A stretch of 18,786 nt of DNA, from UHGV virus genome UHGV-1689787. The stretch is one strand, 5' to 3'. The DNA is from a virus. A program made the translations under genes and the position numbers. Shown here piece by piece: positions 10,905-18,160 of this stretch. The notes under the pieces were generated by a model. That model was not told the DNA's origin. It was given only the letters and a program-made list of their open reading frames with translations, and did no database searches. Every line of letters begins with the position of its first letter. Position 1 is the first letter of the stretch.

Positions 10905-11318
10905 ATGTCTAAAGAACAGCAGAAAAAAGCACTCGAGATGATCAAGGCGGTCTACGATGACGGTTTTGCTGAAATCAACGGCAACCGCTACGACTTTGCT
11001 GCGATGACACACAAAAAACGCCGCAAGGTTTTTGCCTTCTTCACAGGCATTGCCTCTGAGTTATCGCGGCAGTCTCTTGAGTTTCTGGACTCAGAGCGAT
11101 TTGAGGAAATTGAACGCCTGATGTTCGATTACGTTCTGTTTGACGGTGTGCAACTGTCTAAGCAGCCGGAACACTTCGAATCCTACCCTGGTGATTACGT
11201 CATGCTAATCACAACAGCGCTTCAGGTTATCAGCCTGCCTTTTATGGGCGGGAGCAATATGAACTCACGTTCAGAAGCTCCAGACGTTCAGAAATTTACG
11301 TTAAATCCTCGAACATAA
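10905..11318 (+). CDS. Tail assembly chaperone (candidate upstream partner of a -1 frameshift product)
   Basis: 137-aa acidic protein between the tube and tape measure genes. The -1 frame is open across its 3' end (see feature 11327..11484). Confidence 0.5.
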   Translation: MSKEQQKKALEMIKAVYDDGFAEINGNRYDFAAMTHKKRRKVFAFFTGIASELSRQSLEFLDSERFEEIERLMFDYVLFDGVQLSKQPEHFESYPGDYVMLITTALQVISLPFMGGSNMNSRSEAPDVQKFTLNPRT

Positions 11319-11326
11319 GCGACGAC

Positions 11327-11484
11327 ATGAGCATGTATCTGGCGCTATCAAAGGCCGGATACGGCCCCTATCACGAACTTGTTAAATTAGACACACCAGA
11401 GCTGTTTGACATGCTTGAGTTCGAGAATATCAGCGCAGACATTCAACACTACGAGATGGAGAAGGCGCGGAATGGCGATAGTTA
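11327..11484 (+). other. Short -1 frame ORF bridging the chaperone and tape measure genes; candidate frameshift extension or independent small gene
   Basis: The frame that is -1 relative to the chaperone is open from 11195 (after a TGA at 11192-11194) to the TAA at 11482-11484. It contains ATG 11327 (MSMYLALSKAGYGPYHELVKLDTPELFDMLEFENISADIQHYEMEKARNGDS) and ends overlapping the tape measure start. Confidence 0.3.
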
Positions 11485-13268
11485 ACGAGCTTATTACCAA
11501 ATTCGGTTTTATCGGTAATCTGGCGCCGCAGGAAACCTTCAATGCAAATCTGAAAGCATCTATTGGTTTGCTTGCCGGGCTTGGAGCCGCTATCGCCGGT
11601 TCGGCTGCGGGGGTTGCTGGCTGGGTGACGTCTGTCAGTCAGTCTATTGATCCGCTGGTCCAGTTCTCCCGGGAAACGGGGGTGGCGATCGAGACCGTTC
11701 AGTCACTGGGTTACGCGGCGTCTGTAAATGGCTCAAGTGTTGATGCGTTGCAGGCTTCGCTAGGTGAGATGACAAAAAGAGTGGGGGAGTTCGTTTCCAC
11801 CGGTGAGGGGGAGGCGAAAGACGTTGCGGAAAGGCTGGGCCTTCAGTTCAAGGATATGAACGGGCAGGTAAAAAACTCCGATGTGATATTTCGTGAACTG
11901 GCCGACAAACTGCACGGCATGAGCCAGGCAGAGAAGTTTTCTGTTCTGGATAAGATGGGTATCGACCGTTCCATGGTGCAGTTGCTATCCATGACGGGCG
12001 AAGAAATATCTTCGTTGCAGAACAAGGCCGAGGCGCTTGGTGTTGTCACGCAAGACCAGGCCGATCAGTTTGCAGCCTACAACGATTCTCTGACAACGCT
12101 GGGGAAAGGCTTTGATGGTATCAAATTTCAGGTTGCCGTCGGATTTGTGCCGGTACTGAAAGACCTGGTGGATGGGTTTACGGACTTTCTCATTGCTAAT
12201 AAGGATCTCATCAAAAACGGGCTGGCCCATCTTGGGGAAATTATCTTCTCCGTTATGGGTATGATCCGTCGCTTCCTGCCGATTATTGGTCTTATTACCA
12301 CCGGATTTGTAGCCTGGAAAATTGCTGCTATAGGACTTAGAGCGGTGCTGGCAACCATATTCTCTCCTGTCGTACTGATCACTGCCGCCATTATCGCTGT
12401 CGTTCTTGTTATCGATGATTTGCTGACGGCTATGGAAGGTGGCCAAAGCGTTATTGCTGATTTCTTCAAAGATAACTGGGGAATAGATATTGTTCCCGCA
12501 CTGAAAGAGGCGAAAGCGTCGCTCATGGCTTTCATAAACTACGCTATTGGCGTGTTTAAACCGCTTGCTGATGCGATTGCCTCCATGTTCAGGATGGTGT
12601 GGCATCTCATCACAGGTGCGTTTACGGGTGATTTTCAGGGTGCGATGAAGGATGCGCAGAATATCTTTGATTCTCTTATAGCGTTTATCACTGGTGCATT
12701 TGGTGTCGTTGGTGATGCGATTAAATACGTGTTTGGCGATGCCGGCGCGTTTGTCGTTGATGTATTCACTACTGCCATCGAAAACACGAAGCTGATGTTC
12801 TCAGCACTATGGAAGTTAGTCACTGGCGATTTTGAAGGTGCATGGGGGGATGTGGTAAAAATCTTCGATAACGGCGTCGAACTGATGAAAAAACCATTCA
12901 CGGCTTTTATTGACTGGGCGAAAAACATCTTTGCTGGGCTGGGGGAATACATCAGCAATATTATCAGCAACGCTGCTTCAAATGCCTGGAATGCGACAAA
13001 GTCATTCTTCGGGGTCGGTGAGGATGAACAGCAGCAGGGAGTAACCGGCGGCGGTAACGGCGGCATGAGTCCTGGTGGTATTCCTTACGGCATGAATGCT
13101 GCGGTGGGACTCGGTGGTGGTGGCGTGACAAGCAATTCAAGCGTCAGCCAGCAGAACACGATTCACATCAACACATCCGATCCGGTTGTCGCCGGGAATA
13201 CTGCGGCAGATAGCCTGCAACAAAACATGAAGGATGCCAACCGGTTGAGTGGCAGAGGAGGTCGGTAA
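11472..13268 (+). CDS. Tail tape measure protein
   Basis: 598 aa from ATG 11472 (GAAGG upstream); an alternative ATG at 11406 gives 620 aa. Long hydrophobic central segments (IIGLITTGFVAWKIAAIGLRAVLATIFSPVVLITAAIIAVVLVI) and a Gly-rich C-terminus (GVTGGGNGGMSPGG...VGLGGGGV). Position after the chaperone fits. Confidence 0.75.
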   Translation: MAIVNELITKFGFIGNLAPQETFNANLKASIGLLAGLGAAIAGSAAGVAGWVTSVSQSIDPLVQFSRETGVAIETVQSLGYAASVNGSSVDALQASLGEMTKRVGEFVSTGEGEAKDVAERLGLQFKDMNGQVKNSDVIFRELADKLHGMSQAEKFSVLDKMGIDRSMVQLLSMTGEEISSLQNKAEALGVVTQDQADQFAAYNDSLTTLGKGFDGIKFQVAVGFVPVLKDLVDGFTDFLIANKDLIKNGLAHLGEIIFSVMGMIRRFLPIIGLITTGFVAWKIAAIGLRAVLATIFSPVVLITAAIIAVVLVIDDLLTAMEGGQSVIADFFKDNWGIDIVPALKEAKASLMAFINYAIGVFKPLADAIASMFRMVWHLITGAFTGDFQGAMKDAQNIFDSLIAFITGAFGVVGDAIKYVFGDAGAFVVDVFTTAIENTKLMFSALWKLVTGDFEGAWGDVVKIFDNGVELMKKPFTAFIDWAKNIFAGLGEYISNIISNAASNAWNATKSFFGVGEDEQQQGVTGGGNGGMSPGGIPYGMNAAVGLGGGGVTSNSSVSQQNTIHINTSDPVVAGNTAADSLQQNMKDANRLSGRGGR

Positions 13269-14074
13269 TGGGGATTCTAGACGGCCTCATGCAGGCGCAA
13301 TCTTCTGGCAAAGATACTGTTAAAAAGGTAGGGATCGGCGGGTTCTCAATGTTTGCCCGAGTGAGCGATGCTACTGAATACCCGTCTCAGGTTCCTGTAG
13401 ACGTGCTGGAGGATGGCAGTAACGCGTCAGACGACATTATCAATGGCCCGCTGACGATAAAAATCAGCGGTGTTGTTGCCGATATTTTTGTCGATGCGAA
13501 ACCAAACTCTTCTTTTAGCCTGATGCCAGATTATTCGAAGTATGGTGAGGTGCTGGAGTACATCCCCGCAAAGACGCAGCAGCAGTTGCAAAAAATGAAT
13601 GAGATTGCCGACCGCGCAGAGCAGGCCATCTTAAAGGCAAAACGCCTGGCTGATAAAGGAGCCGACCTGTTTGGGCTGGTGGGCAACCCGTCTACTGGTG
13701 GCGCTAAAGGTATACGCGAGCAATTTCTCGACTTCATTGAGGGGGTGTACTACGGCAAGCAGCTTATTTCCGTGGAGGTGGATTATCGCACCCATGAAAA
13801 TATGGCGTTAAGCGGCCTGACCATCAGTACCGACAATCAAACGATGGAAACTAAGTTTGAAGCCAGTTTTACAAAAATCACCTTCACGCAACTGACTACC
13901 GCACCGATTGAGCAGCACTTCAAATCCCCCTCGGCAGCTGCTAAATCAAAAACGGCGGGCGTTGCTAATAAGGGGGCGCAGACGCCCGCTGATAATTCTA
14001 AAAAAAGTAACGGGACCAGCCAGTCAAAATCAGTCATGACCTCGTTAAAAGGGGCGGCGAAATCTTTATTCTAA
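13268..14074 (+). CDS. Tail / baseplate-associated protein of unknown function
   Basis: 268-aa ORF with a GAGGAGG Shine-Dalgarno; its start overlaps the tape measure stop. Lys/Ser/Ala-rich low-complexity C-terminus. Confidence 0.5.
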   Translation: MGILDGLMQAQSSGKDTVKKVGIGGFSMFARVSDATEYPSQVPVDVLEDGSNASDDIINGPLTIKISGVVADIFVDAKPNSSFSLMPDYSKYGEVLEYIPAKTQQQLQKMNEIADRAEQAILKAKRLADKGADLFGLVGNPSTGGAKGIREQFLDFIEGVYYGKQLISVEVDYRTHENMALSGLTISTDNQTMETKFEASFTKITFTQLTTAPIEQHFKSPSAAAKSKTAGVANKGAQTPADNSKKSNGTSQSKSVMTSLKGAAKSLF

Positions 14075-14086
14075 TGAGAGCAACGT

Positions 14087-14422
14087 ATGGATCCGATAAC
14101 CAACATCACTGACGAACCTATCCAGCGGCATGTTCTGATTTTTGACCGTGGTGAGGCTGTGGTCACTATTCGTTATCTGCCTACGGTTGAAATGTGGAAA
14201 ATGCGCGTGGAGTACAACGGTGATTACATCGACGGCGTGAAGCTGTCCCTCGGGACGCTACATTTTCGGCACAAGAACTGGCCTTTCGACGTTGTGTTAC
14301 TTTGCGCTGACAATTCCGGCATTGACCCATATCGGGCAGACGACTTCGCCAGTGGTCGCATCGAAATGTATCTGGTCACGCCGGAAGAGATGATTGATAT
14401 TCGCGGGGGAGACGTGCCGTGA
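14087..14422 (+). CDS. Small tail / baseplate protein of unknown function
   Basis: 111-aa ORF between two baseplate-region genes; its stop overlaps the next start (GTGATG). Confidence 0.45.
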   Translation: MDPITNITDEPIQRHVLIFDRGEAVVTIRYLPTVEMWKMRVEYNGDYIDGVKLSLGTLHFRHKNWPFDVVLLCADNSGIDPYRADDFASGRIEMYLVTPEEMIDIRGGDVP

Positions 14423-15366
14423 TGGATACTTTTTACCGTGATTATCGGCTGACGGTGGGGATCGGCAATCAAGCAGTGATTATCGAGCCACCGATCACCG
14501 TGTCATTCAAGGCGCTGGAAACTGTGGACAAGAAGTCACTCGGCAAGCTGAGTGTGTCCATCAACGGGCTAAAGCCTTCCACGCGTCTGCAATTGCTCAA
14601 GTCCGAAGATGAAGAGAAGTATATCCCCGTTCGACTCGAGGTTGGTTACGACGGCAAGCTGCGCCAGGTATTTCAGGGTTCGGTTAAAAGCGGAGCAGTA
14701 AAGCGTGAGGGGGCGATCCACATCGTCAGCCTGGAATGTGAAGACGGTGGCCACGACTATATCAACGCTTTCACATCGCGCACGGTACGCGGGAAAGATC
14801 AGGTCGTCGATTCTGTCTTGCAGGATATGCCAAACACGAAAAAAGGCTCTGTGACGAAGCAACAAGCACTCATCAGGCCGAAGGTTCTGGTAGGTAGCTC
14901 CAGTAAAATTCTTACCGATACCCTTGCGTCCGACGAGTCATTTTTCATCAAAGATGAGCGCGTCCACATCCTCAAGGCTAATGAGGTTACATCGGGTAAC
15001 ATTCCAGTCGTGAATGCGCGTAGCGGTCTGCTAAATACGCCTCAGGCAACGAAGATTAGCGCACAGGATGACGGGGGGAAGAAAGCCAAGATGCCAACCA
15101 ATGAGCCTGATACGGATCCGGCAGGCAAAAAAGATACTGACTCGAGTACCTTAGCCAAATCCTCGAAAGGGCAGATCGTATTCGATACGAAACTGAATCC
15201 TATGCTGGTGATCGGTGGGCTTTGCGCTGTTGAAAGCGTGACGAACCCCGCGTTAAACGGGGTTTATAAGATATACCAGATTGAAACCAGCGGGCAGAAC
15301 AACGGGGCAGCCTGGTATCAGAAGGTGGTATGCCAGCCTGCCGGAAATTACTCAGTTGTTAACTGA
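14419..15366 (+). CDS. Putative baseplate hub-like protein
   Basis: 315-aa ORF in the position that XkdQ-type hub proteins occupy in PBSX-like tail clusters (recall). Its 3' end overlaps the stop of the minus-strand moron by 15 nt. Confidence 0.45.
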   Translation: MMDTFYRDYRLTVGIGNQAVIIEPPITVSFKALETVDKKSLGKLSVSINGLKPSTRLQLLKSEDEEKYIPVRLEVGYDGKLRQVFQGSVKSGAVKREGAIHIVSLECEDGGHDYINAFTSRTVRGKDQVVDSVLQDMPNTKKGSVTKQQALIRPKVLVGSSSKILTDTLASDESFFIKDERVHILKANEVTSGNIPVVNARSGLLNTPQATKISAQDDGGKKAKMPTNEPDTDPAGKKDTDSSTLAKSSKGQIVFDTKLNPMLVIGGLCAVESVTNPALNGVYKIYQIETSGQNNGAAWYQKVVCQPAGNYSVVN

Positions 15367-15885
15367 AGATTTTACTTCTTGCGTTACGCTGGAATTGGTT
15401 TTTTCTGGTGGGTGACGATCTGAAAGCCAGCCAAGAGCAAAAATAATGACTGTGAGAATAAAAATTTTCTCGCCTATTGAAAACTTCACCTTACCACCTG
15501 CATTTTTAAATGCCGTTTTCTCCTCGGTTGATAGTTTTCTAAATTGCTTATGGGTTAATACCATGACCAATGGGCGAGGTGGTTGAATATCTTCCTGACC
15601 ATCCTCTAACAACGTTGAGTCCGAAAAGAAACCAAGCCGCTCAGGTGCTTGTTCCTCTACGTTCTCAGCGTGTTTACCGGTGGAGTTCTTTTGACCCGCG
15701 AGCAAGTTTCCACTCGTGTAAGACAAACCGGTACCGGGAATGCCTGCGGTTGCCTTTACCCCTTTTTTACCAACGTTCAGGGTAGCACCAGCCTTACCAA
15801 TTGATGCGCTAGTAATGCCTGTTTTACCTATGTTTATATGAATGCCTGGTGCAATTTTGATGCGCTGTCTGAATTTGAATCCCAT
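15352..15885 (-). CDS. Moron: DUF4236-like protein with a C-terminal transmembrane helix (candidate superinfection-exclusion or defence protein, function unknown)
   Basis: Only sizeable minus-strand gene in the window, 177 aa. N-terminus (MGFKFRQRIKIAPGIHINIGKTGITSASIGKAGATLNVGKKGVKATAGIPGTGLSYTSG) matches the DUF4236 pattern as I recall it (GPG and GIPGTG motifs). C-terminal hydrophobic stretch (KIFILTVIIFALGWL). Own strong Shine-Dalgarno (AAGGAG 8 nt before the ATG). The 3' half is AT-rich relative to its flanks. Confidence 0.7.
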   Translation of the reverse strand: MGFKFRQRIKIAPGIHINIGKTGITSASIGKAGATLNVGKKGVKATAGIPGTGLSYTSGNLLAGQKNSTGKHAENVEEQAPERLGFFSDSTLLEDGQEDIQPPRPLVMVLTHKQFRKLSTEEKTAFKNAGGKVKFSIGEKIFILTVIIFALGWLSDRHPPEKTNSSVTQEVKSSVNN

Positions 15886-16000
15886 GAGTGACTCTCCTTA
15901 GTATTAAACGCTGGCGCAGGTTCGCTCTACGGCGATTAGTATGAGTATTTATCTAGCCATCCATTGAACCCACTCTGGCGGTTTTTTATGGGCTTAATTT
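15886..16000. promoter_or_regulatory. Divergent intergenic region holding the moron Shine-Dalgarno and probable promoter, and the upstream region of the baseplate spike gene
   Basis: 115-bp non-coding gap, the largest clean one in the window apart from the 153-nt chaperone-TMP gap. On the minus strand: AAGGAG Shine-Dalgarno, and an AT-rich tract (CTAGATAAATACTCATACTAAT) with several -10-like hexamers 35-55 nt upstream of the moron ATG. No convincing -35/-10 pair could be fixed by eye. Confidence 0.4.
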
Positions 16001-16618
16001 ATGATCGAAGAACTTCACGACACTATCGGCCTGGGTGTTGAATTTGCTCTGGCCGATGTTCACACCATTGTTGTCGCAAAAATAACGTCTGTAAATGACA
16101 AAACAATCAGTTGCGTCCCCGTTATCAATCGGGTTGTGAAAGGGAGCAGCAAGCAACTCCCAGAGTTCATTGAAGTCCCCCCGGTAATTTTGCAAGGCGG
16201 TGATAGTTATATCGCCGAACCAATTGCGGCTGGTGACTATTGCCTCGTCCTTATCTCTGAGCGTTGTTATGACGCTTGGTATGCGGGTAGCGACTTTGTT
16301 TCACCACTTGAAATGCGTATGCACGATTATTCAGATGGCTTCGCTCTGTGTGGGGTTAACCCACAGGCTACCGCGATCAATATCCCTAAGAAGAACAGGA
16401 TGATGAAGGGGGATTCTGACCACGAGGGTGATTTAAACCTCACAGGAAATATTACCCAGAAAGATGGTAAGACGACTCTGGAAGAATGCGATGTTCTGAA
16501 TGTACTTCAATATTCCCAGGTAAAGACAGGCGGTAAGTCTGGGGTGTCTGGTTCATTTCGAAGCGATGACGGGAAAACAATCACAGTTACCAACGGTATT
16601 GTCACGGAGATCTCATGA
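16001..16618 (+). CDS. Putative baseplate central spike / hub protein (gpV or gp138-like by position)
   Basis: 205-aa ORF immediately upstream of the DUF2634-like and Baseplate_J genes. No obvious Shine-Dalgarno before ATG 16001; an in-frame TAA at 15995-15997 bounds the ORF. Confidence 0.5.
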   Translation: MIEELHDTIGLGVEFALADVHTIVVAKITSVNDKTISCVPVINRVVKGSSKQLPEFIEVPPVILQGGDSYIAEPIAAGDYCLVLISERCYDAWYAGSDFVSPLEMRMHDYSDGFALCGVNPQATAINIPKKNRMMKGDSDHEGDLNLTGNITQKDGKTTLEECDVLNVLQYSQVKTGGKSGVSGSFRSDDGKTITVTNGIVTEIS

Positions 16619-16995
16619 TTGTTTCAGCACTTGATAAAAATGACGACTGGGGATTTGGGCGCGGGAAGGCAAACTATATAACTGGCGGTGCTGCTATCGC
16701 GCAGAAAGCCAAATGCCGGATCCGCTCGTTCAAAAACGATAATCCTCTCAACATGGATGACAACATCGACTGGCTTTACCTGTTATCAGAGAAAAACACC
16801 GAGCAGGAGATTCTGCGGGAGATAGAGCGCGTGACGCTGGCGACGGATGGGGTTATGCGCATTACCGCTCTGGCGATGGAGGTCAATAAGGCCACCCGGT
16901 CACAAAAAATCGAACTCAGCATTGAGACCGTCTATGACCAGCAGACGATCACCTTCCCGGTCAACGGAGCGTTGAAGAATGGCACTACAGTTTAG
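16615..16995 (+). CDS. Baseplate wedge protein (gpW / gp25-like, DUF2634-like by recall)
   Basis: 126-aa ORF with start overlapping the upstream stop (ATGA), immediately 5' of the Baseplate_J-like gene, as in PBSX-type clusters (XkdS position). Confidence 0.55.
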   Translation: MIVSALDKNDDWGFGRGKANYITGGAAIAQKAKCRIRSFKNDNPLNMDDNIDWLYLLSEKNTEQEILREIERVTLATDGVMRITALAMEVNKATRSQKIELSIETVYDQQTITFPVNGALKNGTTV

Positions 16996-18160
16996 CGACA
17001 ACGGCCTTGAGACAAGCACTCTCCGGGAGTTATTTCAGGAACTGAGCGACGGATATAAGGGAATTTATGGTCAGGATATCGATTTAGACCAGGAATCTCC
17101 CGACGGTCAACGCGTGGCAATCGAAGCTCAGGCTCGGGCAGATATTGAAGCCGCGCTGCAATGGCTTTATTCCCAAATGGACCCCGATTTTAATACTGGT
17201 GATATGCAGCAGATTATCGCCAAACTTCACGGGCTTTTCCTTCGCCCCGGCTCCCGGTCTCAGCGTGACCTTAAAGTCACAACAGACAGGCCGGTGCTTC
17301 TCTATAGCGGGTACAAGATACGGGACCAGGCAAATCAGGTCTGGGCTATCCGACAGGACGTGACCGTTCCGGCGGGCGTCACAACAGCCACCTTTTTTGC
17401 TCAAAACTTTGGGAAAGTTACTGGGCTTGTGAACGACACCTTCACTCAACTCACACCAGAACCAGGGATTGTGAGCATTATCTCTGATTCCGCGGTTGTG
17501 GTCGGTCGGGATGAGGAAACGCCTGAAGAATTCAGGCAACGCCGGAACCGGTCGCTTGAGAACCCGGCAACAGGTAGCACTGGGGCGGTTTTCGCTAAAG
17601 TTGCTCAACTGACAGGTGTAATTGATCTGAATATCGGAGAGAACGACACAAAAATTGATAATCCGACGACGGGTATCCCGGCCAATTCAATATGGCTGGT
17701 CGTTGAGGGGGGAGCGATTTCAGAAATTGTGGAGGTGATGGTTAAACAGAAAGGCGGTGGAACGGGAACGAAAGGCAGCATAACCGGACGTTTTACCGAG
17801 ACCCTGATTCGGCCTGACGGCACTTCATTTCTGATAGCCCATGAACTTCAGTTTGATCGGCCCATCTATAAGCCGCTTCATATCAGGCTTAATGCCCGCC
17901 GGAAGATTCAAAGCGAACCGATAGATATCGATACTCTCAAAAAATCTCTTGCATCACGCACCATGCATATTGGTGAGTCTGTGGATGCCAATGAATTTTA
18001 TGAGAATGGGTATGGGGTAGGACGGGTAAATTTTGTGCTGACCAATCTGCAAATTAGCAGTAATGGGGCAGATTACACCGATGCTGAGTTATCGCCAGGC
18101 TTTCAGGGAAAGTTCACGTTGAGTGTGGAAAATATAGACGTTAACGAGGTGGTCCAGTGA
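16979..18160 (+). CDS. Baseplate J-like protein
   Basis: 393-aa ORF. Size and N-terminal region are typical of the Baseplate_J family; sits between a gpW-like and a DUF2612-like gene. Confidence 0.75.
   Translation: MALQFSDNGLETSTLRELFQELSDGYKGIYGQDIDLDQESPDGQRVAIEAQARADIEAALQWLYSQMDPDFNTGDMQQIIAKLHGLFLRPGSRSQRDLKVTTDRPVLLYSGYKIRDQANQVWAIRQDVTVPAGVTTATFFAQNFGKVTGLVNDTFTQLTPEPGIVSIISDSAVVVGRDEETPEEFRQRRNRSLENPATGSTGAVFAKVAQLTGVIDLNIGENDTKIDNPTTGIPANSIWLVVEGGAISEIVEVMVKQKGGGTGTKGSITGRFTETLIRPDGTSFLIAHELQFDRPIYKPLHIRLNARRKIQSEPIDIDTLKKSLASRTMHIGESVDANEFYENGYGVGRVNFVLTNLQISSNGADYTDAELSPGFQGKFTLSVENIDVNEVVQ

What the first reader, a model, noticed from the sequence alone, without database searches (positions are those of the whole stretch)
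15352..15885. Minus-strand DUF4236-like membrane protein inserted within the baseplate gene block
Every morphogenesis gene in the window is on the + strand and tightly packed, except this 177-aa gene, which is antisense to the late operon between the hub-like gene (14419..15366) and the spike-like gene (16001..16618). It has its own strong Shine-Dalgarno and an upstream AT-rich promoter-like region, and its stop overlaps the convergent upstream gene by 15 nt. The protein combines an N-terminal DUF4236-like domain (GPG and GIPGTG motifs, recalled from the family description), a charged linker and one C-terminal transmembrane helix. Opposite-strand insertion in a structural module is the classic signature of a moron expressed from the prophage, and membrane-anchored morons are often superinfection-exclusion or abortive-infection factors. 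DUF4236 has no assigned function that I know of, so this is a candidate uncharacterised single-gene exclusion or defence determinant. The specific function is inference.
Basis: partly seen in the sequence, partly recalled or inferred. Interest (0 to 1): 0.8.

Follow-up and report, generated by a model that had tools for sequence, protein, structure and literature searches.

The report
Membrane-anchored DUF4236 moron in prophage baseplate
A real, conserved accessory gene sits backwards between two baseplate genes of an E. coli prophage; it encodes a small inner-membrane-anchored protein of an unstudied family (DUF4236) that most likely helps the lysogen keep out other phages, but this has not been tested.

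Summary
Window 15352..15885 (-) is a genuine 177-aa gene. It matches Pfam DUF4236 end to end (E 5e-19), has an AAGGAG ribosome-binding site, and overlaps the convergent hub gene by 15 nt. It is the only minus-strand gene in the morphogenesis block of an E. coli prophage found in 5 of 5,426 complete genomes.

Comparative genomics shows it is inserted cargo (a moron). In isolated relatives (Yersinia fEV-1, Vibrio VBM1 and 1.052.A) and an Advenella prophage, the hub and spike genes overlap and the slot is empty. Other relatives carry DUF4236 alone, DUF4236 plus a secreted orphan protein, that protein alone, a DUF4236-less anchor-plus-periplasmic-domain protein, or mnt-DUF4236 // arc-ant. This last layout mirrors P22 sieA-mnt // arc-ant. 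The gene has foreign composition (GC3 39% against 47-64%) and is under strong purifying selection.

The protein has a strongly basic, amphipathic six-strand beta-meander in the cytoplasm, an acidic linker, a basic juxtamembrane motif and one C-terminal TM helix. Across the family, 124 of 140 representatives are membrane-anchored in this way.

No promoter was found with confidence. There is no hit to any defence or solved-structure library, and the searchable literature says nothing about the domain. Superinfection exclusion at the inner membrane is the best guess (about 0.4).

The parts
15352..15885 (-). DUF4236 moron CDS (177 aa plus stop)
   Evidence: RefSeq WP_000505900.1 'DUF4236 domain-containing protein'
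15715..15879 (-). DUF4236 domain, residues 3-57. Predicted six-strand amphipathic beta-meander; residues 1-60 carry net charge +9; predicted cytoplasmic
   Evidence: Pfam; AF2 pLDDT about 85; alternating hydrophobic and basic/polar columns in 133 family members; charge
15571..15705 (-). Acidic linker, residues 61-105. Predicted disordered, variable, and deleted in some homologues
   Evidence: AF2 pLDDT below 50; alignment A2, deleted in P0016 and P0018; higher pN
15472..15570 (-). Conserved basic juxtamembrane motif, residues 106-138 (LTxKQFRKLSxEEKxAFKxAGGKVKFS)
   Evidence: alignment A2; also occurs without DUF4236 in P0261 and P0262
15418..15471 (-). Single C-terminal transmembrane helix, about residues 139-156
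   Evidence: hydropathy; AF2 helix 137-157
15355..15417 (-). Short variable tail, residues 157-177, predicted periplasmic. Its last codons and stop overlap the hub gene 3' end (15352-15366)
   Evidence: the same position carries an extra 2-Cys domain in Salmonella and Pantoea variants
15894..15899 (-). Shine-Dalgarno AAGGAG, 8 nt upstream of the ATG
   Evidence: sequence
15886..15942 (-). Leader conserved with the Salmonella mnt-DUF4236 intergenic region; part of the cassette
   Evidence: blastn junction mapping and alignment
16067..16095 (-). Only sigma-70-like match upstream of the gene (TTTACA-17-AACAAT), inside the spike gene 5' end. Weak and unverified; a matching site exists in Pantoea
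14419..15366 (+). Left border of the slot: baseplate hub gene (E217_GP41-like)
   Evidence: homology with relatives ends at about 15351-15362
16001..16618 (+). Right border of the slot: membrane-puncturing spike gene (PF18352 N-domain)
   Evidence: homology with relatives resumes at about 15980-16000

Best explanation
The gene is a moron: horizontally acquired cargo inserted antisense between the normally overlapping hub and spike genes of a temperate, lambdoid-mosaic myovirus prophage. It is not part of the virion. Its product inserts into the inner membrane through one C-terminal helix. The short tail faces the periplasm, and the conserved parts face the cytoplasm: the strongly basic, amphipathic DUF4236 beta-sheet and the basic juxtamembrane motif. 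Most likely it is made in the lysogen and acts at the cytoplasmic face of the inner membrane to stop superinfecting phages. It would do this by interfering with the channel or the DNA as the genome crosses the inner membrane. That would make it functionally analogous to P22 SieA, HK97 gp15 and T4 Imm, though not homologous to them. Shown here: gene reality, domain identity, insertion and variable-slot status, foreign composition, purifying selection, predicted anchor. Inferred: topology, expression from the prophage, and the exclusion function and its mechanism.
For: Insertion: the slot is empty, with hub and spike genes overlapping, in fEV-1, Vibrio 1.052.A, VBM1 and an Advenella prophage. 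Variable cargo occupies the same slot in Citrobacter, Kluyvera, E. coli 1506, Pantoea, Yersinia and Salmonella, while the flanks stay 80-95% identical. Composition: GC 43.6% and GC3 39%, against GC 47-52% and GC3 47-64% in neighbours. Selection: pN 0.08-0.13 in the domain against pS 0.53-0.88. Position: in Yersinia and Salmonella relatives the gene lies directly downstream of an Mnt homologue and opposite Arc-Ant. This is the same topology as sieA-mnt // arc-ant in P22, where SieA is an inner-membrane injection blocker (PMC10883804). Other DUF4236 genes occupy classic lysogeny-expressed or moron sites: behind an HTH_3 repressor-type gene (function assumed from the domain) next to the integrase; between tail chaperone and tape measure in phiCD38-2 and an Acinetobacter prophage, which is the HK97 gp15 site (PMC3594210); antisense before the spike in temperate Klebsiella phage GZ7/RCIP0034; and in a TA/Abi-rich island. 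Architecture: 124 of 140 family representatives have a TM segment after the N-terminal domain and 69 are pure tail-anchored proteins; the median charge of the domain is +10. Rare fusions to Mrr_cat nuclease and HIRAN DNA-binding domains, through TM segments, hint at a membrane-DNA interface role.
Against: No experimental datum exists for any DUF4236 protein; one paper in the library contains the term, and I did not read it. There is no PADLOC, NCBIfam or PDB relative. There is no sequence similarity to SieA, and Pfam reports no YebO or Imm match. No convincing promoter or terminator was found, so prophage expression is assumed. The periplasmic tail, where an incoming tail tip would be met, is short and poorly conserved. 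DUF4236 proteins also occur in large Klebsiella (137-149 kb) and Brevundimonas (313-357 kb) phages whose lifestyle was not checked, and co-oriented within structural operons, so lysogeny-specific use is not universal.
Confidence: 0.4

Rival explanations
1. Abortive-infection type effector. DUF4236 senses or oligomerises on a phage cue, and the membrane-tethered amphipathic sheet and TM helix then damage the membrane. The infected cell dies without yielding phage.
For: The same N-terminal domain is joined to TM helices in most members and to an Mrr_cat nuclease or HIRAN domain in a few. This effector-swap pattern is familiar from defence systems (own knowledge). The strictly amphipathic beta-sheet cannot be a soluble monomer. 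A relative sits among Abi_alpha and TA genes.
Against: It is a single gene with no partner or antitoxin and is presumably made constitutively in lysogens. There is no PADLOC hit. The strands have only 4-9 residues in the AF2 model, probably too short to span a bilayer.
Confidence: 0.15
2. Lysogenic-conversion factor unrelated to phage defence. It would be a membrane protein that alters envelope or stress physiology of the host, for example tolerance to colicins or antibiotics, or a stationary-phase role like the tail-anchored ElaB/YqjD proteins.
For: The moron status is established but says nothing about function. The tail-anchored, basic cytoplasmic domain architecture resembles ribosome- or membrane-binding tail-anchored proteins (own knowledge). 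Family members occur outside obvious prophages.
Against: The gene is strongly tied to phage genomes: nine PHROG families share the domain. It recurs at sieA-like and gp15-like positions. It also occurs in large Klebsiella and Brevundimonas phages, although their lifestyle was not checked.
Confidence: 0.2
3. Accessory function in the phage's own lytic cycle at the membrane, such as lysis timing, genome entry or replication anchoring, rather than a prophage-expressed function.
For: DUF4236 genes are co-oriented with structural genes in phiCD38-2 and an Acinetobacter prophage, and are present in 137-149-kb Klebsiella and 313-357-kb Brevundimonas phages.
Against: Here the gene is antisense to the late operon, so late transcription cannot express it. 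Closely related viable phages lack it. It lies behind mnt in Salmonella and Yersinia relatives.
Confidence: 0.12
4. Virion or baseplate component, or a spurious antisense ORF.
For: Only its location inside the baseplate block.
Against: Opposite strand; absent from relatives with an otherwise identical baseplate module; membrane anchor; Pfam match and purifying selection exclude a chance ORF.
Confidence: 0.03

Closest known systems
P22 SieA (superinfection exclusion A)
   Same: An antisense gene wedged between late or injection genes and convergent with the upstream late gene. In Yersinia and Salmonella relatives the DUF4236 gene has the same place relative to mnt // arc-ant as sieA has in P22. 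Small predicted inner-membrane protein of about 165-180 aa whose conserved part faces the cytoplasm; for SieA this is the FxRYPxEAxxFNK motif (PMC10883804).
   Different: No sequence similarity. SieA has three TM helices and no beta-rich soluble domain, whereas this protein has one C-terminal TM and a 60-aa basic beta-meander. The host phage is a contractile-tailed myovirus, not a P22-like podovirus, so any target would be a tape-measure or spike channel rather than gp7/16/20. The phenotype is untested.
HK97 gp15 moron (YebO-like) superinfection exclusion protein
   Same: The prototype moron: a small single-pass inner-membrane protein encoded inside the tail operon that blocks genome entry (PMC3594210). 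DUF4236 genes of phiCD38-2 and an Acinetobacter prophage occupy the very same chaperone-to-tape-measure site.
   Different: Unrelated sequence; Pfam reports only DUF4236. The window gene is antisense and sits between hub and spike. It has a much larger cytoplasmic domain.
T4 Imm, lactococcal Sie2009 and S. thermophilus Ltp (membrane-associated injection blockers; own knowledge)
   Same: Small phage-encoded membrane or membrane-tethered proteins that prevent DNA entry. The Sie2009 and Ltp genes lie between the repressor and integrase genes, like the DUF4236 gene in element L017-L019.
   Different: No homology was detected by Pfam or PADLOC. Ltp and Sie2009 act from the outer face of the membrane, whereas here the conserved mass is predicted to be cytoplasmic.
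Pfam PF14020 / DUF4236 family, including PHROG phrog_18347
   Same: True member: a full-length domain match. The best PHROG match is phrog_18347 (E 5.6e-79), which has no assigned function.
   Different: The full-length subfamily (domain plus acidic linker plus basic motif plus TM) is rare. Only 4 of 6,732 matching 50%-identity clusters reach E<=1e-30. All seven examined genomic places (window, L003, L006, L009, L022, L024, L025) lie in this one prophage slot.

Membership tests
Pfam DUF4236 (PF14020) | HMM match above the gathering score over the whole domain | tested here: met
   69 bits against a cutoff of 27, E 4.9e-19, profile positions 1-55 of 55
Moron (Hendrix/Juhala sense) | Present between two genes that are adjacent in otherwise related phage genomes | tested here: met
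   Hub and spike genes overlap directly in fEV-1, Vibrio 1.052.A, VBM1 and an Advenella prophage. Junctions map to about 15351-15362 and 15980-16000
Moron (Hendrix/Juhala sense) | Nucleotide composition differs from the neighbours | tested here: met
   GC 43.6% and GC3 39.3%, against GC 47-52% and GC3 47-64%
Moron (Hendrix/Juhala sense) | Own promoter and terminator | tested here: inconclusive
   No sigma-70 match in the intergenic region. One weak 9/12 match inside the spike gene. No intrinsic terminator. Counts are at chance level
Moron (Hendrix/Juhala sense) | Expressed from the repressed prophage | not testable with these tools
   Needs strand-specific RNA-seq or a reporter fusion in a lysogen
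P22 SieA family | Sequence homology to SieA types A-C, including the FxRYPxEAxxFNK motif | tested here: not met
   BLASTP best E 0.036 over 23 residues; motif absent
P22 SieA family | Three-TM inner-membrane protein | tested here: not met
   A single hydrophobic segment at 137-157
P22 SieA family | Blocks DNA injection by related phages | not testable with these tools
   Requires plating, DNA-entry and escape-mutant experiments
HK97 gp15 / YebO family | Sequence match to YebO-like proteins | tested here: not met
   The Pfam scan at E<=1 returns only DUF4236
Known anti-phage defence systems (PADLOC-DB v2) | Match to any defence-protein HMM | tested here: not met
   0 families at E<=1
Tail-anchored (C-terminal single-pass, N-in) inner-membrane protein | No signal peptide; one TM near the C-terminus; positive charge on the N-terminal side | tested here: met
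   By prediction only. Hydropathy and charge; AF2 helix; variants with a 2-Cys C-terminal domain, and a DUF4236-less anchor-plus-domain protein in the same slot, fit an N-in/C-out topology. Experimental topology is untested
Virion structural protein of the baseplate | Co-transcribed with and conserved alongside the baseplate genes | tested here: not met
   Opposite strand; absent or replaced in relatives

The most novel reading that the evidence does not exclude
DUF4236 defines a large class of phage- and mobile-element-borne proteins that has not been studied experimentally. At least 6,700 clusters at 50% identity match it, and most are about 100-aa tail-anchored proteins. On this reading they guard the cytoplasmic face of the inner membrane with a strongly basic, amphipathic beta-sheet and block or intercept incoming foreign DNA. 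No characterised superinfection-exclusion or defence protein works this way. The hub-spike slot of this prophage lineage would then be a hotspot where such exclusion modules are shuffled: the DUF4236 head, the basic anchor, the periplasmic 2-Cys domain, the secreted orphan protein and immI.
Probability: 0.25. Interest if true: 0.8.

Novelty: new member of a known kind. Interest (0 to 1): 0.55.

Why it matters
Prophage morons encoding small membrane proteins are a proven source of superinfection-exclusion functions, but only a handful of families are understood (SieA, gp15, Imm, Ltp, Sie2009). DUF4236 is widespread. It matches 6,732 clusters at 50% identity, nine PHROG families share the domain, and it occurs in temperate phages, in large phages whose lifestyle was not checked, and in integrative elements and cassette islands. 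The searchable literature holds one paper that mentions it, which I did not read. This locus gives a clean entry point: a single gene with defined insertion borders, natural empty-slot and domain-swap variants, and a cultivable temperate phage (Klebsiella GZ7/RCIP0034) carrying a minimal version in the same slot. If exclusion is confirmed, it would add a new protein family and possibly a new cytoplasm-side mechanism. It would also improve annotation of thousands of hypothetical phage genes. If not, it remains an ordinary moron of unknown role.

Tried and rejected
- Near-identical DNA in isolated phages: none found.
- Defence and naming libraries: PADLOC and NCBIfam gave no hit.
- Homology to P22 SieA: rejected.
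- phiCD38-2 AcrIB2: I checked whether this validated anti-CRISPR is the DUF4236 gene. It is not; acrIB2 lies downstream of the lysis genes.
- Rfam over the whole window: no RNA family.
- Promoter and terminator scans in the window and in three relatives: only chance-level matches.
- Genome-contig scan with the spike alignment: only 3 loci. Most comparative power came from exact-protein lookups instead.
- Pfam and PHROG on the alternative secreted cargo and on the periplasmic 2-Cys domain: no significant family (only sub-threshold DUF3106 and DUF7266 matches, E about 0.06).
- Virion component and chance ORF: considered and rejected (see rivals).
Full report
**1. The observation**

Window 15352..15885 on the minus strand is an ATG-initiated ORF of 177 codons.
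- AAGGAG lies at 15899..15894, 8 nt before the start codon.
- The 3' end overlaps the convergent hub gene (14419..15366) by 15 nt.
- Pfam DUF4236 (PF14020) matches residues 3-57 over the entire 55-position model: E 4.9e-19, 69 bits against a cutoff of 27. GIPGTG is at residues 48-53.
- The best PHROG match is phrog_18347 (E 5.6e-79, no function assigned). Eight further PHROG families share the domain.

| Window coordinates | Gene |
|---|---|
| 11406-13268 | tape measure |
| 13268-14074 | Dit-like protein |
| 14087-14422 | Pam3-gp18-like plug |
| 14419-15366 | E217_gp41-like hub |
| 16001-16618 | membrane-puncturing spike (PF18352 N-domain) |
| 16615-16995 | wedge / sheath initiator |
| 16979-18160 | baseplate J |

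The window is 99.5-99.9% identical to a prophage present in 5 of 5,426 complete E. coli genomes. In RefSeq this gene (WP_000505900.1, 'DUF4236 domain-containing protein') is the only minus-strand gene of the block. All five copies are 100% identical, even where the hub gene is 98.8% identical.

The sigma-70 scan finds nothing inside the 115-bp intergenic region. It finds only a weak 9/12 match (TTTACA-17-AACAAT, 16095..16067) within the spike gene's 5' end, plus no terminator. These counts are no better than shuffled sequence. A matching site exists at the equivalent place in Pantoea, but the spike coding sequence there is conserved anyway.

**2. It is inserted cargo**

In the closest isolated phages the hub and spike genes overlap by a few bases and the slot is empty. 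These are Yersinia fEV-1, Vibrio 1.052.A and Vibrio VBM1. The same holds for an Advenella prophage.

Within Enterobacterales prophages of this lineage, the hub 3' end and the spike 5' end stay 80-95% identical to the window. Homology breaks at about 15351-15362 and resumes at about 15980-16000. The slot content varies:

| Slot content | Where seen |
|---|---|
| DUF4236 gene alone | window; E. coli L024; Pantoea L006 |
| DUF4236 followed by a signal-peptide orphan protein | Kluyvera L009 (L025 has a 122-aa downstream gene whose identity was not checked) |
| That secreted protein alone | Citrobacter L008; E. coli 1506 L002, cut by IS1 |
| 147-aa protein with only the basic motif, TM and a 2-Cys periplasmic domain, no DUF4236 | Yersinia L026-L028 |
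| Mnt-like gene then DUF4236 on one strand; Arc-like then Ant on the other | Yersinia L003-L005; Salmonella L022 |

The gene has GC 43.6% and GC3 39%, against GC 47-52% and GC3 47-64% in its neighbours. It is more diverged from its orthologues (73-81% nt identity) than the flanks are. These are the defining features of a moron.

**3. It is a functional gene**

Homologues covering at least 88% of the query, at 53-92% identity, occur in E. coli, Kluyvera, Salmonella, Pantoea and Yersinia. Every one of the seven genomic places I examined lies in this slot and in this orientation.

Synonymous sites are saturated (pS 0.53-0.88 in the DUF4236 domain). Non-synonymous divergence differs by region:
- DUF4236 domain: 0.08-0.13
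- basic motif plus TM: 0.10-0.33
- linker: 0.15-0.58
- C-terminal tail: 0.11-0.72

**4. Anatomy of the protein**

- Residues 1-60 carry net charge +9. AlphaFold2 models them as a six-strand antiparallel beta-meander with pLDDT about 85.
- In 133 family representatives the strands alternate strictly between aliphatic and polar/basic positions, with G-K-x-G turns. The sheet therefore has one fully hydrophobic face and one basic face. It must either pair with another copy or lie on the membrane.
- Residues 61-105 form an acidic linker. It is predicted disordered and is deleted in P0016 and P0018.
- Residues 106-138 hold a conserved basic motif (LTxKQFRKLSxEEKxAFKxAGGKVKFS).
- Residues about 139-156 are the only hydrophobic helix.
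- Residues 157-177 form a short variable tail.

Several features together predict an N-in/C-out, tail-anchored inner-membrane protein whose conserved mass is cytoplasmic:
- There is no signal peptide.
- The N-terminal side of the helix is basic.
- The Salmonella and Pantoea variants carry an added 2-Cys domain after the helix.
- A DUF4236-less anchor-plus-domain protein occupies the same slot.

**5. Family-wide picture**

A full-library phmmer search finds 6,732 clusters (50% identity) at E<=1e-3. Only 4 reach E<=1e-30, so the full-length architecture is rare although the domain is common.

The domain is almost always at the extreme N-terminus. Of 140 representatives:
- 124 have at least one TM segment after the domain;
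- 69 are pure tail-anchored proteins (median length of all 140 representatives, 127 aa);
- the median net charge of the first 60 residues is +10.

Other partners include SH3_3, zinc ribbons, TM2 and Excalibur. Rarer partners, joined through TM segments, are an Mrr_cat nuclease and a HIRAN DNA-binding domain.

**6. Where DUF4236 genes sit elsewhere**

- In temperate Klebsiella phage GZ7/RCIP0034 a 105-aa tail-anchored DUF4236 gene lies antisense just upstream of the spike gene. This phage has the same lambdoid-early and E217-like-tail design, with integrase and CI.
- In an integrase/primase element it lies directly downstream of an HTH_3 repressor-type gene, next to the integrase.
- In C. difficile phiCD38-2 and an Acinetobacter prophage it lies between the tail-chaperone region and the tape measure. 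This is the site of the HK97 gp15 moron (PMC3594210).
- In Aliivibrio it lies among CcdAB, TacAT and Abi_alpha cassettes.
- It also occurs in 137-149-kb Klebsiella phages and 313-357-kb Brevundimonas phages. I did not check the lifestyle of these phages.

**7. Mechanism**

The strongest functional clue is positional. In the Yersinia and Salmonella relatives the gene follows an Mnt homologue (35% identity to P22 Mnt, E 1e-9; phrog_795) and faces Arc-Ant. This reproduces the P22 arrangement gene16 | sieA - orf59a - mnt // arc - ant | gene 9. [quoted passage not shown]

Junction mapping shows that the 1.63-kb ant-arc-mnt block is an indel between the spike start and a conserved 57-nt DUF4236 leader (15886-15942).

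I therefore favour a prophage-expressed protein that acts at the cytoplasmic face of the inner membrane against superinfecting phage genome entry (about 0.4). Every step from 'expressed in the lysogen' onward is inference.

The rivals are:
- an Abi-type membrane effector, 0.15;
- lysogenic conversion unrelated to phages, 0.2;
- a role in the phage's own lytic cycle, 0.12;
- a structural part or chance ORF, 0.03.

Against the favoured reading:
- there is no promoter evidence;
- no defence-library hit;
- no similarity to SieA, gp15 or Imm;
- the periplasmic tail is poorly conserved;
- the domain occurs in large phages of unchecked lifestyle.

**8. Comparison with what is known, and novelty**

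The protein is a true member of Pfam DUF4236. By three of the four moron criteria I could test (insertion between adjacent genes, deviant composition, and independence from the late operon by orientation) it is a moron. It is not a member of the SieA, YebO/gp15 or any PADLOC family. It may work like them.

One paper in the searchable literature contains the term DUF4236. I did not read it, so I cannot say what it reports about the domain.

I rate this a new member of a known kind, namely tail-module morons encoding small inner-membrane proteins. The interest is moderate. The gene itself is already annotated, and morons of unknown function are common. What is new is the family-level picture: a tail-anchored, basic, amphipathic sheet, repeatedly captured at lysogeny and moron sites, with modular shuffling in one slot. 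This makes a large unknown family directly testable.

Noticed in passing
L003 4481-5937 and L022 2361-3931 (slot between spike and the DUF4236 gene in Yersinia and Salmonella relatives): A complete P22-immI-like module sits inside the baseplate block of these myovirus prophages: an Mnt homologue, an Arc-like repressor and a P22_AR_N antirepressor around a divergent control region. Relative to the window it is a 1.63-kb indel.
   Followed up: partly
L008 4617-4979 (-), L009 4055-4441 (-), L002 19714-19980 (-): Alternative slot cargo: a 120-aa signal-peptide protein (MKKLICIAGLLFATASIAGPY...) with no Pfam or PHROG family, restricted to Enterobacterales. In E. coli strain 1506 it is truncated by IS1, which also removed most of the prophage.
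   Followed up: partly
L026-L028 5001-5444 (Yersinia prophages): The same slot holds a 147-aa protein made only of the basic juxtamembrane motif, the TM helix and a 2-Cys periplasmic domain. This is the window protein's anchor without DUF4236. The Salmonella and Pantoea 248-252-aa variants carry both heads, which points to modular domain shuffling in one hotspot.
   Followed up: partly
window 15967-15978 (-) and L003-L005 5942-5953: The exact 12-mer CCAGAGTGGGTT lies just upstream of the DUF4236 leader in the window, and a few bases (about 5 nt) after the mnt-like stop codon in Yersinia. It occurs once in the window (0.07 expected). It may be a scar showing that the E. coli arrangement arose by loss of ant-arc-mnt.
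   Followed up: partly
L029 34054-34371 (Klebsiella phage GZ7) = L016 4001-4318 (RCIP0034): An isolated temperate phage of the same design carries a minimal 105-aa tail-anchored DUF4236 gene antisense just upstream of its spike gene. This is a ready experimental model.
   Followed up: partly
proteins P0143, P0095, P0124 (from the representative search): DUF4236 is fused, through TM segments, to an Mrr_cat restriction-endonuclease domain or a HIRAN DNA-binding domain. These are membrane-anchored DNA-directed architectures of unknown context.
   Followed up: partly
L003-L005 11295-12095: A NUMOD3-domain (homing-endonuclease-like) gene lies antisense between the sheath and tube genes of the Yersinia prophage. 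It is a second insertion in the same tail module.
   Followed up: no
window 10905-11485: Two small ORFs (137 aa and 52 aa) lie ahead of the tape-measure gene, and the second overlaps its start. This looks like a tail-assembly-chaperone pair, possibly with a programmed frameshift.
   Followed up: no
L001 26628-28713 (downstream of the window in strain NADC1036): Oppositely oriented tail-fibre and tail-fibre-assembly genes lie next to a small serine recombinase. This suggests an invertible host-range segment like those of Mu and P1.
   Followed up: no
L008 3671-4616: The hub gene of the Citrobacter murliniae relative is split into two ORFs, so that prophage is probably defective.
   Followed up: no
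window 15352-15366: The last residues of the hub protein differ among relatives according to the cargo junction (...NYSVVN here, ...SVIK or ...KVIG elsewhere). The insertion therefore rewrites the hub C-terminus.
   Followed up: partly
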